From assembly GCF_946184425.1 (NCBI RefSeq), contig NZ_CAMHFP010000008.1:112-64111 (forward strand): a stretch of DNA of 64,000 nt, written 5' to 3'. Positions 36,680 to 55,862 of the stretch are shown here, in pieces. A program made the position numbers and the translations under genes. Every line of letters starts with the position of its first letter. Positions within the stretch are counted from its first letter, which is position 1. Origin of the DNA: an uncultured Methanobrevibacter sp. (GTDB lineage: Archaea; Methanobacteriota; Methanobacteria; Methanobacteriales; Methanobacteriaceae). The notes beneath the pieces are model-generated. The model worked only from the letters and a program-made list of their open reading frames with translations. It did no database searches and was not told the origin of the DNA.

Positions 36680-36723
36680 TTTTAGTTACTAAATGTAATT
36701 TTAATTAATCAAGTATATAAATT
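36680..36723 (-). promoter_or_regulatory. Promoter with 27-bp conserved box (copy 1) downstream of a TTTATATA box
   Basis: TTTTAGTTACTAAATGTAATTTTAATT at 36680-36706 and AGTATATAAATT at 36712-36723; both recur identically at 55818-55862. Confidence 0.7.
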
Positions 36724-36784
36724 ATTTGATAGGTTAACCGACATCAAGAATATAATTGGGAAGAGATTTAATCTAATTAAAAAA

Positions 36785-37180
36785 TTAATTGTCCCATTTT
36801 CCAAAATACCATACACCATCAATTTTTATAAACGTAGCAACAGTATTTAAAGTCCATTTGCCACGAGCCCCGTATACCTTAGCTGTTAATGTTACATCAG
36901 CAATCAGAGAAGCAGCATTATTATCACCCCAAAGTATTGTAGGCTCCCCAATTTCTGATTTGTAATAATTGAGTGTTCCATCCATCACTTCGCCAATGAA
37001 TTCACTTTTAGATTGAGTTTTACCGGACATATGAACTAACTGGTAACTCTCATCAATGATTTCATTTAATTTATCTTCATCCTTATCTATTAACGCCTGT
37101 TGAAATTCAATAAATCTATTAAGAATCTCTTCATCGGCATTTGAAAAAGATTTTTCACAAATTAATTCTACATCTGACAT
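36785..37180 (-). CDS. NTF2-like / DUF4440 family protein
   Basis: D.DKLNEII...YQLVHMSGKTQSKSEFI pattern; C-terminal beta strands ending in KIDGVW. Confidence 0.8.
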   Translation of the reverse strand: MSDVELICEKSFSNADEEILNRFIEFQQALIDKDEDKLNEIIDESYQLVHMSGKTQSKSEFIGEVMDGTLNYYKSEIGEPTILWGDNNAASLIADVTLTAKVYGARGKWTLNTVATFIKIDGVWYFGKWDN

Positions 37181-37246
37181 AATATACTATATAAATTAAT
37201 AAATACATAATAATTTATGTATGAATGATTAAAGGTTGGTGAAACT

Positions 37247-52579: not shown

Positions 52580-53329
52580 ATGAAAATCGGAGCATCAACT
52601 CTCGCAGGAATAGAATATGACTTAAAAAAATCTTTAGAATTTATAGAAGATTTAGGAATTGAATATGCCGAACTAGTACATCAATATCCTACAGAATTAA
52701 TTGATAAAGAGACATTGGAAAGTTACAAGCTGAAATATTCAATTCATGCCCCATTTATGGATGTTAATATTGCAAGTCTTCAAGAACAGAGCAGATTAAA
52801 TTCAATAGCCCAAATAAAAAACTCCATTGATTTAGCAAATGAAATAAATGCCGAAGCGGTTGTAGTGCATCCAGGAACAATTTCATTTTTAGCGAATAAA
52901 TTCTTTAAAAAGGAAGTATATGAAACTGCAAACAATTCTATAAAAGAAATTGGAGATTATGCTAAAGATTTAGGTGTAATGGCGACTATTGAAAATATGC
53001 CAAACTTTGAATCAATGATTTACCAGAATATGGAGGATTTGAATAACCTTCTTGAAGAAAATGAAATGTACATGACATTGGACATTGGTCATGCGAATCA
53101 TGTCGGATACTCAGCAGACGGAATGATTTTTGATTCAATTAAACACATACATGTGCATGATAATTTTGGTGATGATGACTCACACCTACCATTAGATGAA
53201 GGCTCTATTGATTTAAAACATATCATAGATAATCTAGAGTCAAAAAATTATGATGGCATCTACATACTTGAGGTAAATGACTTCGATTCCATCAAAAAAA
53301 GTTTTGAGTATATGAAGAAAAACTTCTAA
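52580..53329 (+). CDS. Xylose isomerase-like TIM barrel (sugar phosphate isomerase/epimerase / AP endonuclease 2 family)
   Basis: IHAP, VVHPG, IENMP, LDIGHA, HIHVHDN, HLPL and ILE metal-binding motifs. Confidence 0.85.
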   Translation: MKIGASTLAGIEYDLKKSLEFIEDLGIEYAELVHQYPTELIDKETLESYKLKYSIHAPFMDVNIASLQEQSRLNSIAQIKNSIDLANEINAEAVVVHPGTISFLANKFFKKEVYETANNSIKEIGDYAKDLGVMATIENMPNFESMIYQNMEDLNNLLEENEMYMTLDIGHANHVGYSADGMIFDSIKHIHVHDNFGDDDSHLPLDEGSIDLKHIIDNLESKNYDGIYILEVNDFDSIKKSFEYMKKNF

Positions 53330-55647
53330 AGAAGCTTTTTCTCTTTAATTTCTTTTTTAAAATATAGATATTTTGAATCCACTACTTTTCTGATATTTTC
53401 TGCTGTTTTTTTACCTATTCCTTCAACTTCCTGAAGTTCCTTTTCAGAAGCATTGATAATATTGCCCACAGTGCCAAAATGTTCAAGCAATGCCTTAGCA
53501 TTGACAGGTCCAATGTTCGGTAGTGATTCTACAATAAACAGTTGCTGTTCAAGTAAACTGACCGGTTTTTTATCAGTTCTGATTTGAACAGGAGTTCTTT
53601 CACCATTTTGTTCTCTTACAGCAATTCTTTTAATCATCGCTGCAGTATCTTGAGCATTACGGGTAGGGATTATACTGATTCCAAAGTCAATTGCAATTGA
53701 AGCCAGAGACCCTCTTATCGCATTAGCATTTACCATGCCCGCATACAAATCATCCCCTTCGAGAATCAACAACGGCTTTTTAAACTCTTCAGACAACTCA
53801 CGGGCCTGCTTAAATAATCTTTTATCAATGATTGAATCAACAAAATCCTTTGCTGTTTTTCTTTCAATAGCTACTTCATCACTTACCTGATAATCGGCAA
53901 CTGCCATTGATTGAACTTTAACATCAATTTCCATTTCGGTTAAATACCTTATCACTTTAGAATTTCCTTCTCTTGAATCAGCATAAACAACAGGGAAATT
54001 ATTTTCTTTTTTAGGCTTTTCAAGGACACGTACTTTCTTCTCGTTTTCCATTCTCCAAACAGCAGAAGCATTCAATTCCTCTAAAACATCAGGATCAATC
54101 AATTGATTTTTCATACGACTTTCTTTATTAACAGATGACCAATAATAAGCTTCATCTCTTGTTCCATTAGTTATCAGAACTTTTACACGGCCTGTTCTCT
54201 TACGCCCAGTTCTTCCTCTTCTTTGAATCATCCTTACTTCAGACGGAACAGGCTCATATAAAATAACCAAATCCACTGCAGGAATGTCTATACCTTCTTC
54301 TGCCACACTGGTGGATAAAAGAACATCATACTCCCCCATTCTAAAAGATTTGATAATGGCTTTTTGCTGTTTTTGAGTAAGACCCTTTTCACCATCTTTT
54401 GCTGCCTGACCAAAAAACTTGGCAGATTTTATTCCTTCCTTTTCAAGTTTTTGATGAATCATTTCAAGAGTATCTCTAAATTGAGTGAAAACAATAATTT
54501 TAGAGGAAGAATCATCCTCTTTATCAGTGAATCTTGTGGACTGAAGTTTAGTTTGACCATCACTGGAACCAAATTCTTTTTTAAGAATTTTTGATAGTTC
54601 CCTTAATTTAGGATGTTCCCAGCCATGTTTTTCAGCTTCTTTTGCAAGCCTAACAGCACGTGAAAAATTATCATCCCACATCAATGATTTTGCAGCTTTG
54701 GTCTTTTTCTTACGCAATCTTGCCACATATTTATTGAAAGTGGATACCCCCTGAGTTTCAATTAACTCTTGAGCATGCTGCAAATTAATAACTGCACTTA
54801 ATATGGAAATAGCCTGAAATAAATCCTTATTGGGATTGGTAGTTCTTGCAATTTCACCCTGTATCCTTCCCCTTGCCTTTAAAATATCAACTTTACCAAC
54901 TGAAACAGTTCTAATAACACCCATATTCTTTAAGGCTTTTAATCTGATTTTTAAGGCTTTATCTACATTTTCCTTAATTTTTTGAAGTTCATCACTCATT
55001 TTAACCCTGACCCAATCAATTTCAACAGGATTGAAATAAGGTTTAACATCAGTATCCTCTTCAGTTTTAACTACAATGTTTTGAATATAGAGATTTTGAC
55101 AAACTTCTTTAATTTTTGCTTTATCCGAACCAGGAGAGGCAGTTAATCCTAAAATTAAATTAAATTTAGATTCCTGAACATATCTTGAAGCCAGATATAC
55201 ATAAGAATAAGATCCAACTCCATGATGGCATTCATCGAAAACCATCAAGGAAACATTGCTTAAATCATAACGGCCATTCAACAAGTCTGATTCGACAGTT
55301 TGAGGTGTTGCACAAATAATTCGAGATTCCTCCCATCTTTTAACACGTTCATCTGTTTTAACAGCACCAGTTATAGAAGTGCAAGGAAGGGTTAAGAATT
55401 CCTTAAAACTTTCCTCATGCTGAATAGCTAAAGGTTTTGAAGGAGCGAGAATTAAAACTTTAGAATTTTTAACCTTATGCAATCTATCGGCTGCAACTAA
55501 AATCGCTACAATAGTTTTACCTAATGCAGTAGGAGCTACAACCATAGTATTTCCTTTTTTTAGCACATCCCCTGCCAGAATCTGCTGATATAATCTTGAT
55601 TCAATTGCATCTTTTTTAAGCAAAGGATGATTAATATAACTAGTCAT
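53326..55647 (-). CDS. hef: Hef: DEAH helicase + ERCC4 nuclease (FANCM/Mph1 homologue)
   Basis: PTALGKT, DECHH, TASP and QRRGRTGR motifs; ERKT nuclease motif; C-terminal HhH repeats. Confidence 0.95.
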   Translation of the reverse strand: MTSYINHPLLKKDAIESRLYQQILAGDVLKKGNTMVVAPTALGKTIVAILVAADRLHKVKNSKVLILAPSKPLAIQHEESFKEFLTLPCTSITGAVKTDERVKRWEESRIICATPQTVESDLLNGRYDLSNVSLMVFDECHHGVGSYSYVYLASRYVQESKFNLILGLTASPGSDKAKIKEVCQNLYIQNIVVKTEEDTDVKPYFNPVEIDWVRVKMSDELQKIKENVDKALKIRLKALKNMGVIRTVSVGKVDILKARGRIQGEIARTTNPNKDLFQAISILSAVINLQHAQELIETQGVSTFNKYVARLRKKKTKAAKSLMWDDNFSRAVRLAKEAEKHGWEHPKLRELSKILKKEFGSSDGQTKLQSTRFTDKEDDSSSKIIVFTQFRDTLEMIHQKLEKEGIKSAKFFGQAAKDGEKGLTQKQQKAIIKSFRMGEYDVLLSTSVAEEGIDIPAVDLVILYEPVPSEVRMIQRRGRTGRKRTGRVKVLITNGTRDEAYYWSSVNKESRMKNQLIDPDVLEELNASAVWRMENEKKVRVLEKPKKENNFPVVYADSREGNSKVIRYLTEMEIDVKVQSMAVADYQVSDEVAIERKTAKDFVDSIIDKRLFKQARELSEEFKKPLLILEGDDLYAGMVNANAIRGSLASIAIDFGISIIPTRNAQDTAAMIKRIAVREQNGERTPVQIRTDKKPVSLLEQQLFIVESLPNIGPVNAKALLEHFGTVGNIINASEKELQEVEGIGKKTAENIRKVVDSKYLYFKKEIKEKKLL

Positions 55648-55817
55648 AATTAATCCTTCAGAATTTAATATGAGATTTTAAATTAAAATCTACCAATACC
55701 CTTATTATCATATTATTTTTAGTACTTATAAAACATTTAGTGAGAGCATTTGAAAAGTAATTACACTTAGAAAAGGGTTACTCTGTTACCTAATTATTAT
55801 AAAAAACAATTAATAAG

Positions 55818-55862
55818 TTTTAGTTACTAAATGTAATTTTAATTCTTTATAGTATATAAATT
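55818..55862 (-). promoter_or_regulatory. Promoter with 27-bp conserved box (copy 2) downstream of a TTTATATA box
   Basis: TTTTAGTTACTAAATGTAATTTTAATT at 55818-55844 and AGTATATAAATT at 55851-55862. Confidence 0.7.

What the first reader, a model, noticed from the sequence alone, without database searches (positions are those of the whole stretch)
36680..55862. Identical 27-bp box downstream of the TATA box in two promoters 19 kb apart (get3/arsA and hef): candidate undescribed regulon
Seen: TTTTAGTTACTAAATGTAATTTTAATT occurs exactly at 36680-36706 and 55818-55844. Each copy is followed after 5 or 6 nt by AGTATATAAATT, which is a TTTATATA box on the minus strand. The box contains the dyad TTAC-N5-GTAA and covers the expected start site about 25 nt downstream of TATA, which is repressor geometry. 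A 27-nt exact match with conserved TATA spacing is very unlikely by chance even in AT-rich DNA. Inference: one factor co-regulates a membrane-protein targeting ATPase and a fork-repair helicase/nuclease. Copy 2 lies about 170 nt upstream of hef, so it may instead drive a long 5' UTR or an sRNA.
Basis: partly seen in the sequence, partly recalled or inferred. Interest (0 to 1): 0.68.

Follow-up and report, generated by a model that had tools for sequence, protein, structure and literature searches.

The report
Virus docking site in arsA promoter
The repeated 27-base box is the conserved promoter box of the arsA/get3 gene, which methanogen viruses and their remnants use as a chromosomal docking site. 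The copy near hef is a stray piece of that hotspot, not evidence that the two genes share a regulator.

Summary
Observation confirmed. The 27-mer is exact at 36680-36706 and 55818-55844, each followed by a minus-strand TTTATATA, and these are the only two copies in the genome.

The arsA+hef regulon reading is not supported. The box belongs to a ~56-bp promoter module (TATA, then 26-27 bp, then a 19-bp near-palindrome). That module lies no more than 160 nt upstream of arsA in about 80 of 101 genomes of the genus. No other genome has it at hef.

hef has its own conserved promoter. Copy 2 sits in a ~1.2-kb insertion (membrane-protein gene, conserved arsA-upstream spacer, module) that replaced the 5' part of a PNPOx-like gene.

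In relatives, the right half of the box is the shared core of attachment sites. One genome carries a 51-kb tailed provirus (terminase, portal, helicase) between a box copy and arsA, with its integrase next to arsA. A close relative has the empty site. Integrases or integrase fragments abut the arsA-proximal core in four more genomes. Decayed elements leave 2-4 box copies with toxin-antitoxin and defence-type cargo.

Whether the palindrome is also a host operator remains inferred.

The parts
36680..36706 (-). 27-mer, copy 1. Part of the arsA promoter module.
   Evidence: Exact match. Orthologous module lies upstream of arsA across the genus.
36678..36696 (-). 19-bp near-palindrome of copy 1 (ACATTTAGT-A-ACTAAAATC). 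The last 2 nt of the right arm and the following GTAAG of the genus consensus are replaced: TCTATC stands where the consensus has GTAAGT.
   Evidence: consensus.
36714..36721 (-). TATA box (TTTATATA) of the arsA module.
   Evidence: TATA-to-box distance is 26-27 bp in 37 of 38 instances.
35639..36652 (-). arsA/get3 (single-domain ArsA/GET3/TRC40-family ATPase). RBS GGAGGT at 36660-36665.
   Evidence: Pfam PF02374 2.6e-109; TIGR00345 3e-106.
36785..37180 (-). DUF4440 gene. It forms the conserved left frame of the hotspot together with NadE and LeuRS.
55818..55844 (-). 27-mer, copy 2. Palindrome at 55816-55834, TATA at 55853-55860, ATAACTAA at 55862-55869.
55808..57026 (-). Strain-specific insertion of arsA-hotspot DNA: module copy 2, conserved spacer, orf250 and its upstream region. 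The left junction lies at 55808-55818, at the att crossover region. The right junction lies at 57005-57027.
   Evidence: Homology to the hef/Mur-ligase locus of 6 relatives breaks at 55761-55807 and resumes at 57027-57167. Homology to the G084 hotspot covers 57005-56084.
55863..56114 (-). Conserved ~250-nt non-coding 'unit' that precedes the arsA module in other species. It contains att-scar-like motifs.
   Evidence: 71-80% identical to the arsA-upstream DNA of G005, G022, G062, G050, G068 and G045. Alignment.
56115..56867 (-). orf250, a membrane protein with no family hit. In relatives it lies directly upstream of the arsA-proximal module.
   Evidence: 86-94% nucleotide identity to hotspot genes in G084, G010, G023, G024, G057, G058, G089 and G098. 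No Pfam or NCBIfam hit.
57027..57150 (+). 3' remnant of a PNPOx-like flavoprotein gene. Its 5' part and promoter were replaced by the insertion.
   Evidence: 68-70% nucleotide identity to the 3' end of the G057 and G010 gene. The translated remnant resembles that gene's C-terminus by eye; tblastn returned no hit.
55724..55807 (-). Native hef upstream region: TATA-like TTTTATAAGT at 55724-55733, conserved block at 55734-55761, GTAAC cluster at 55776-55790, T-run at 55799-55809.
   Evidence: Alignment with hef upstream regions of 6 relatives; coordinates.
53326..55647 (-). hef (DEAD/Helicase_C, ERCC4 nuclease, HhH).

Best explanation
The 27-mer is the core of a ~56-bp promoter module of arsA/get3. 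The module consists of ATAACTAA, TTTATATA, a 26-27-bp spacer, and the 19-bp near-palindrome AC(A/T)TTTAGT-W-ACTAAAAGT followed by AAG.

Shown:
- The module is conserved upstream of arsA throughout the genus and in at least one sister genus.
- The right half of the palindrome plus GTAAG (about TAGTWACnAAAnGTAAG) is the sequence shared by attB, attL, attR and attP-like junctions of tyrosine-integrase elements, including a 51-kb tailed provirus.
- The arsA upstream region is therefore an integration hotspot. Intact or decayed elements leave 2-4 direct copies of the box, with toxin-antitoxin, STAND-ATPase, Bro-N and membrane-protein cargo between them.
- Copy 2 in this window is the end of a ~1.2-kb fragment of such hotspot DNA (orf250, spacer, module). 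It now sits between the native hef promoter and a truncated PNPOx-like gene.

Inferred:
- The fragment reached the hef locus by excision between two box copies and re-insertion at a secondary site. The evidence is that its hef-side junction falls within about 5 nt of the att crossover region, and that the corresponding region in relatives resembles the arsA-side arm of attB.
- The palindrome also serves the host, as a start-site-overlapping operator or initiator of the arsA promoter. This would explain why it is conserved in genomes without an element.
- Copy 2 may fire toward hef, but an oligo-T run about 10-20 nt downstream and hef's own promoter make a regulatory link doubtful.
For: Conservation at arsA:
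- The box lies no more than 160 nt upstream of the arsA start in about 80 of 101 genomes. This is a hand cross-tabulation; alignments are.
- In sister genus g16 it is a perfect palindrome between NadE and an arsA that is 66% identical.

Not at hef:
- There are no box hits in 8-kb hef loci of 6 relatives, where hef instead has a conserved promoter of its own.
- By coordinates, hef lies about 17-30 kb (up to ~40 kb) from the box where both are on one contig.

Insertion:
- Homology to relatives breaks and resumes as described above.
- orf250 and the spacer are hotspot DNA.

att function:
- G023 carries module + box, then portal, capsid and TerL genes (PHROG 979, 2e-81), an MCM-like helicase (3e-115) and an integrase, then a P arm + core, then arsA.
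- This provirus is collinear with virus vir323, with TerL 92.8% identical.
- G010 has the empty site with the same left flank (one mismatch in the aligned 70 nt upstream of the box).
- Integrases 76-77% identical abut the arsA-proximal core in G026 and G070. Fragments do so in G040 and G056.
- Integrases only 35% identical sit next to core + P' arm junctions in G100 and G242.
- G036 looks like an excision scar.

Cargo annotation. Multi-copy arrays.
Against: - No attP was found on a free viral genome. vir323 itself lacks an integrase, the core and the P' arm. The deposited phage collection has no match to the att regions. IMG/VR hits to the core were chance matches in coding regions.
- The exact crossover position is not defined. 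The attL and outer attR cores in G023 differ at 3 positions, so the array is composite.
- The hef-side junction is not clean, because the GTAAG segment is missing. The other junction is a deletion inside a gene. Illegitimate recombination would therefore explain copy 2 equally well.
- The integrase-bearing examples G023, G026, G070, G040 and G056 may descend from a single ancestral integration.
- No transcript or start-site data exist, so promoter activity and the operator role are untested.
Confidence: 0.7

Rival explanations
1. One reading: one transcription factor binds the box at two promoters and co-regulates arsA/get3 and hef, forming an undescribed regulon.
For: The box is intact at both sites, with an intact TATA at the correct spacing. 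It has palindromic, start-site-overlapping geometry. The native hef/PNPOx intergenic region and the hxlR/macrodomain intergenic region carry GTAAC repeats.
Against: The hef copy is strain-specific and lies in inserted DNA about 127 nt upstream of hef's own conserved TATA, with an oligo-T run in between. Only two copies exist in the genome. GTWAC dyads are not enriched genome-wide.
Confidence: 0.06
2. The box is only a host promoter/operator. The duplications arise by homologous or illegitimate recombination in a variable intergenic region, and the neighbouring proviruses are incidental.
For: Many arrays contain no integrase. Paralogous modules within one genome differ by about 10-15% and are shuffled among species. 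Both junctions of the window insertion are imprecise. TATA and spacer, which lie outside the att core, are also conserved.
Against: Integrases of at least three sub-lineages sit directly beside the core. The 51.5-kb insertion in G023, relative to the empty site in G010, is bounded by a direct repeat of ACTAAAAGTAA. Homology between module types always ends right after AAAAGTA.
Confidence: 0.2
3. The box acts at the RNA level, as a 5'-leader element or the 5' end of a small RNA (the ORF-free 'type B' continuation) that is co-expressed with arsA.
For: The box lies at or after the expected start site. The type B continuation is conserved over about 100 nt in 20 or more species and has two small hairpins with some covariation (75% of cells paired; 4 of 500 shuffles reach the score).
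Against: No Rfam match. arsA leaders are not more stable than shuffled controls (mean z = +0.11). RNAalifold finds no consensus structure. Type B is better explained as the element-side P' arm: it sits next to the portal gene or an integrase.
Confidence: 0.04

Closest known systems
Prophage psiM100 of Methanothermobacter wolfeii and lambda-type att sites in AT-rich intergenic DNA (reviewed in PMC8371274)
   Same: A tailed provirus of Methanobacteriales with a tyrosine integrase next to one junction. The att site is short, AT-rich and non-tRNA. The G023 integrase is 28% identical to the psiM100 integrase, and TerL is 35% identical.
   Different: Here the att core lies inside a promoter, at the expected start site of arsA. 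It is conserved across about 100 species and is used by several integrase lineages. The review states that psiM100 integration has no effect on neighbouring transcription.
pTN3-like integrases, which target the 5' half of a tRNA gene so that the restored gene is expressed from an element-borne promoter (PMC8371274)
   Same: Integration separates the target gene from its own promoter. The element's arm supplies a TATA-like sequence at a similar distance from the core: the P arm reads CCGAAAAGTATATAG, then about 19-25 nt, then the core.
   Different: The target is a protein-coding gene's promoter/leader, not a tRNA gene. These integrases are not of the SSV or suicidal type. Promoter use is inferred, not shown.
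MSTV1 and MSTV1-like proviruses of Methanobrevibacter smithii (PMC11375127), and virus vir323 (BK063679.1)
   Same: Same host group. The integrase is 38-39% identical to those of MSTV1 and vir080. The structural module is 70-81% identical in nucleotides to vir323. The paper notes that related proviruses use different intergenic sites.
   Different: MSTV1 integrates into the 3' end of a czcD-family gene. The arsA-promoter site is not mentioned in the main text. vir323 has no integrase and no att core.
Archaeal repressor operators that overlap the start site, such as MDR1, NrpR and Phr (from my own knowledge, not checked here)
   Same: A palindrome spanning about -4 to +14 relative to a start site placed roughly 24-27 nt after the TATA box. 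It is conserved in orthologous promoters.
   Different: No factor is identified and there is only one target locus per genome. The same sequence also serves as a recombination core.
Integration hotspots with tandem accretion of elements at tRNA genes, and defence islands
   Same: Direct repeats of the att core separate cassettes that carry toxin-antitoxin, STAND-ATPase and Bro-N genes. Arrays are variable between conserved flanks.
   Different: The anchor is a promoter box rather than a tRNA gene. Some repeats include a complete TATA + box module.

Membership tests
Attachment site of tyrosine-integrase proviruses or integrative elements | Integrated element bounded by direct repeats of a short core. 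| tested here: met
   G023: cores at C140:16442, 67825 and about 67935. Relative to G010, the insertion is flanked by ACTAAAAGTAA.
Attachment site of tyrosine-integrase proviruses or integrative elements | Integrase gene adjacent to one junction. | tested here: met
   G023 (PHROG 1, 2e-12), G026 and G070 (76-77% identical). Fragments in G040 and G056. Integrases only 35% identical in G100 and G242.
Attachment site of tyrosine-integrase proviruses or integrative elements | Empty site with the same flanks in a relative. | tested here: met
   The G010 arsA module and G023 attL share the same left flank (one mismatch in the aligned 70 nt upstream of the box). G019 and the window have the minimal DUF4440-module-arsA arrangement.
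Attachment site of tyrosine-integrase proviruses or integrative elements | attP on a free or circular element. | tested here: inconclusive
   attP-like P arm-core-P' arm junctions occur inside contigs of G100 and G242. None was found in deposited viral genomes or IMG/VR.
Attachment site of tyrosine-integrase proviruses or integrative elements | Recombination activity at the core. | not testable with these tools
   Needs excision PCR or an in vitro assay.
   Met for arsA (about 80 of 101 genomes). Not met for hef (0 of 6 inspected; none by coordinates in more than 40).
   Two copies only, and they are related by descent.
   HxlR is a lead only. Its own intergenic region has GTWAC-N6-GTAAC, which differs by 1 nt in spacing from the box and matches only a half-site.
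Dispersed repeat / MITE | Many copies, terminal inverted repeats, target-site duplications. | tested here: not met
   2 copies in 2.23 Mb, and 1-4 per genome in relatives, all at one locus type.
Structured RNA leader or known ncRNA | Rfam match or conserved structure with covariation. | tested here: not met
   No Rfam hit. Mean z = +0.11. No consensus structure. Only weak hairpin covariation in type B.
Xer/dif site | 11-6-11 architecture, one site per chromosome near the terminus (from my own knowledge). | tested here: not met
   The box is 9-1-9 (or 8-7-8 if read as a core site). It is always at arsA and is associated with phage-type integrases. Position relative to the terminus was not tested.

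The most novel reading that the evidence does not exclude
The arsA promoter box is a dual-use element. It would be a host operator for a stress-responsive repressor, possibly the syntenic HxlR-type thiol sensor, and also the attB of temperate viruses. Integration would then place the viral portal-side genes under the host arsA promoter, while the virus donates a surrogate promoter to arsA. That would couple provirus expression to a host stress signal. The 6-nt block change in this strain's arsA site (GTAAGT to TCTATC) could be an integration-resistant allele.
Probability: 0.12. Interest if true: 0.7.

Novelty: new member of a known kind. Interest (0 to 1): 0.45.

Why it matters
- It replaces a tempting but wrong inference (a Get3-Hef regulon) with a mechanism that explains why identical promoter boxes can occur at unrelated genes: relics of site-specific integration.
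- It defines a conserved chromosomal integration site, and candidate integrases, for a genus of gut and rumen methanogens for which I know of no genetic tools. A short attB plus its integrase is the raw material for an integration vector.
- It marks the arsA upstream region as the place to look for proviruses, defence genes and toxin-antitoxin cargo in these genomes.
- It flags an unusually conserved archaeal promoter whose regulation, and therefore the regulation of tail-anchored protein targeting, is unknown.

Tried and rejected
- Dispersed repeat or MITE: rejected, 2 copies only.
- Known RNA family: none found.
- RNA structure in arsA leaders: none. In the type B continuation, RNAalifold found nothing and hand-drawn hairpins have only weak covariation.
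- A small RNA gene sharing arsA's promoter: superseded once type B was found next to portal and integrase genes.
- Genome-wide GTWAC-N5/6-GTWAC dyads: not enriched, and only 3 are intergenic. TATA plus TTAGTWAC geometry gives only one extra site, the macrodomain promoter, which is within chance expectation.
- HxlR as the binding factor: its intergenic region has conserved GTAAC repeats, but the spacing differs and it is only a half-site. Left open.
- Replication-origin or dif readings: considered and dropped. The architecture does not fit, and no Orc1/Cdc6 gene was among the hotspot genes examined.
- Pfam integrase scan of the genus: showed no hits at the hotspots. The list was truncated and these integrases score near the cut-off. 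tblastn with a locus-derived integrase found them.
- attP in public viral collections: no match in the phage collection or in IMG/VR. The 23 IMG/VR core hits were unrelated coding sequence.
- Literature: no description of this box or site was found.
- Assembly artefact: judged unlikely, because neither junction of the 1.2-kb insert lies in a repeat. It could not be tested with reads.
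Full report
**1. The observation**

The 27-mer is present exactly twice, at 36680-36706 and 55818-55844 on the + strand. None of 100 shuffles produced a match. The whole 2.23-Mb assembly has no further copy with up to 3 mismatches. The next-best site has 5 mismatches and lies inside a signal-peptide coding region.

Both copies are followed by AGTATATAAATT, which reads as TTTATATA on the minus strand. 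The neighbouring genes are as stated. One is a single-domain ArsA/GET3 ATPase at 35639-36652(-). The other is Hef at 53326-55647(-).

**2. What the box is at arsA**

A scan of 103 species genomes of the genus found the motif in 72, far above the reversed-pattern control. In almost every case it sits in one context: ATAACTAA, TTTATATA, a 26-27-bp spacer, the box, then an RBS and the arsA start.

I cross-tabulated arsA coordinates with box coordinates by hand. The box lies no more than 160 nt upstream of arsA in about 80 of 101 genomes.

The best symmetry axis is the W of GTWAC. This gives a 19-bp near-palindrome, AC(A/T)TTTAGT-W-ACTAAAAGT, with 7.4 of 9 arm matches. The central base flips between A and T among species.

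In a sister genus whose arsA is only 66% identical, the site is a perfect palindrome between NadE and arsA. Outside these close genera the motif is at background level.

If transcription starts about 24-27 nt after the TATA box, the palindrome spans roughly -4 to +14.

No RNA-level role is supported. There is no Rfam hit, and arsA leaders fold no better than shuffled sequence (mean z = +0.11).

**3. hef is not a second regulon member**

In six relatives the 8-kb hef locus has no box. hef is preceded by its own conserved block (ATTACTnnTCAAATGCTCTCACT) and a TTTATAA box. In the window these lie at 55734-55761 and 55724-55733.

By coordinates, hef lies about 17-30 kb (up to ~40 kb) from the arsA box where both are on one contig. 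That matches the 19 kb seen here, and no other genome has a box beside hef.

Homology between the window and the relatives' hef/Mur-ligase locus breaks at 55761-55807 and resumes at 57027-57167. The DNA in between is arsA-hotspot material:
- orf250 (56115-56867) is 86-94% identical to a gene that lies directly upstream of the arsA module in eight other genomes.
- The 250-nt spacer (55863-56114) is the arsA-upstream non-coding region of at least six further species.
- Homology to the G084 hotspot runs from 57005 to 56084.

On the far side, 57027-57150 is the 3' remnant of a PNPOx-like gene that is intact in G057 and G010.

Copy 2 is therefore the end of a ~1.2-kb insertion, about 127 nt upstream of hef's native TATA. 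An oligo-T run (55799-55809) lies between them.

**4. Why the box is duplicated: it is an attachment site**

In many genomes the arsA upstream region holds 2-4 direct copies of the module, 1.2-8 kb apart. Variable genes on either strand lie between them:
- MNT/HEPN and PIN toxin-antitoxin genes
- a SocA/Panacea antitoxin with a partner
- STAND/ATPase_2 NTPases
- Bro-N proteins
- orf250

Copies that are not followed by arsA continue into a conserved ORF-free 'type B' sequence. The two continuations always diverge right after AAAAGTA.

G023 explains this pattern. Its layout runs as follows:
- a module + type B junction
- portal and protease genes
- capsid genes
- a large terminase (PHROG 979, 2e-81)
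- an MCM-like helicase (3e-115)
- a tyrosine integrase, whose start faces arsA
- a P arm plus a core copy, TAGTTACAAAATGTAAG
- about 100 nt further on, an inner core and the arsA RBS

The element is collinear with the published Methanobacteriales virus vir323. TerL is 92.8% identical in amino acids, and blocks of the genome are 70-81% identical in nucleotides. Its integrase is 38-39% identical to those of MSTV1 and vir080.

G010 shows the empty site: the same left flank through the box (one mismatch in the 70 nt upstream of it), then arsA.

Other genomes add support:
- Integrases 76-77% identical abut the arsA-proximal core in G026 and G070. In G070 the other junction, with a portal gene, is on another contig.
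- Truncated integrases do so in G040 and G056.
- Integrases only about 35% identical sit beside P arm-core-type B junctions in G100 and G242. These look like junctions between tandem elements.
- G036 carries a full module with element-type core polymorphisms and a long leader, as expected of an excision scar.

The sequence common to all junction types is about TAGTWACnAAAnGTAAG. This is the right half of the palindrome plus GTAAG.

Type B is thus the element-side P' arm, not a host RNA gene. The arm motif GGTAAGTAATCGAAAATC occurs in opposite orientation in the P and P' arms. The P arms carry a TATA-like sequence at about the same distance from the core as the host TATA. From this I infer that elements donate a substitute promoter to arsA.

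**5. Reading the window in that light**

Copy 1 is the minimal arrangement, DUF4440-module-arsA, also seen in G019. Copy 2 with orf250 and the spacer matches the arm that in G010, G023, G024, G057, G058, G089 and G098 lies immediately upstream of the arsA-proximal core.

Both window copies match the consensus up to ACTAAAA, and both lack the following GTAAG. Copy 1 has an ungapped 6-nt block change (TCTATC for GTAAGT). Copy 2 passes directly into hef-upstream DNA.

In G010 and G057 the corresponding hef/PNPOx intergenic DNA contains AGTTTATTT(C/T)AA(G/A)G, which resembles the arsA-side arm AAGTTTATTTAAGG.

I therefore favour the following sequence of events:
1. Excision of a decayed cassette by recombination between two box copies.
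2. Re-insertion at this secondary site.
3. A later deletion that removed the other junction together with the 5' part of the PNPOx gene.

This sequence is inference. The junctions are not clean, and illegitimate recombination is a live alternative. The genome does encode three integrase homologues of this family: C19:25111-26232, a broken one on C3, and one on C40.

**6. What remains open**

- No free viral genome with the attP was found, and the exact crossover is undefined.
- The host function of the palindrome is unproven. Conservation of the left arm, the spacer and the TATA box in genomes without elements argues for one.
  - In support: the hxlR orthologue is syntenic, 4-5 kb from arsA. 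Its own intergenic region carries a conserved TTTTTGTAAC...GTWAC-N6-GTAAC array in 24 genomes.
  - Against: this matches only a half-site, with a 1-nt spacing difference, and GTWAC dyads are not enriched genome-wide. It stays a lead.
- I found no description of the site in the literature. The MSTV1 paper notes only that related proviruses use various intergenic sites.

**7. Verdict**

- Observation: confirmed.
- arsA part of the interpretation: reasonable.
- hef part and the regulon: refuted.
- What is really there: a conserved promoter box that doubles as a virus/element attachment site, and a relic of that system next to hef.

This is a new member of a known kind. It has practical interest because it defines an attB and candidate integrases for a methanogen genus for which I know of no genetic tools.

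Noticed in passing
window 31113-31223 (hxlR / macrodomain-SirTM intergenic region); loci L061-L084: In 24 genomes this divergent intergenic region keeps TATTTAAATGATTTTTGTAAC, then N5-6, GRAACC, N2, GTWAC, N6, GTAAC just upstream of the hxlR TATA. This looks like an autoregulatory operator array. In several genomes part of it reads GTAACTAAAAAGTAAC, close to the arsA box half-site.
   Followed up: partly
L056 / L057 (G010, G057 hef-PNPOx intergenic region); window 55776-55790: The promoter region of the PNPOx-like flavoprotein gene in relatives has a TTTTTGTAAC...GGTAAC...GTAACC cluster, built like the hxlR/macrodomain one. The window keeps only a remnant (GGTAACAGAGTAACC). This may be a small thiol- or electrophile-stress regulon unrelated to the 27-mer.
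   Followed up: partly
window 36672-36677 (minus strand, just downstream of copy 1): An ungapped 6-nt block substitution, TCTATC instead of the genus consensus GTAAGT, falls exactly at the inferred att crossover segment of the arsA site. It could make this strain's attB refractory to integration.
   Followed up: no
own genome G000:C2:34900-34998 and C59:326: A type B (P' arm)-like sequence starts at the stop codon of a 109-aa ORF, with no promoter module (nhmmer E = 9.5e-6). An att-like AGCTACAAAAAGTAAG lies at a contig start. These may be other relics of the same element family.
   Followed up: partly
own genome G000:C19:25111-26232, C3:15168-16274, C40:2239-3171: Three homologues of the arsA-site integrase family. 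The C19 copy is 68% identical to the G100 integrase. The C3 copy is split into three frames. Their own att sites were not determined.
   Followed up: no
G023:C140:16.4-67.9 kb (L098, L102-L104): The vir323-like provirus carries a ~15-kb block of three large adhesin-like genes (505, 1293 and 2296 aa), a second integrase at 35020-36069, and a cytosine methyltransferase with a neighbouring gene. It may be two tandem elements.
   Followed up: partly
L047, L049-L051 (G024, G098, G089, G057): about 800 nt between the type B sequence and orf258: An ORF-free stretch of about 800 nt is conserved at 93-99% among four species over the first ~140 nt compared (layout). It could be a degraded gene or non-coding DNA. 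It was not analysed.
   Followed up: no
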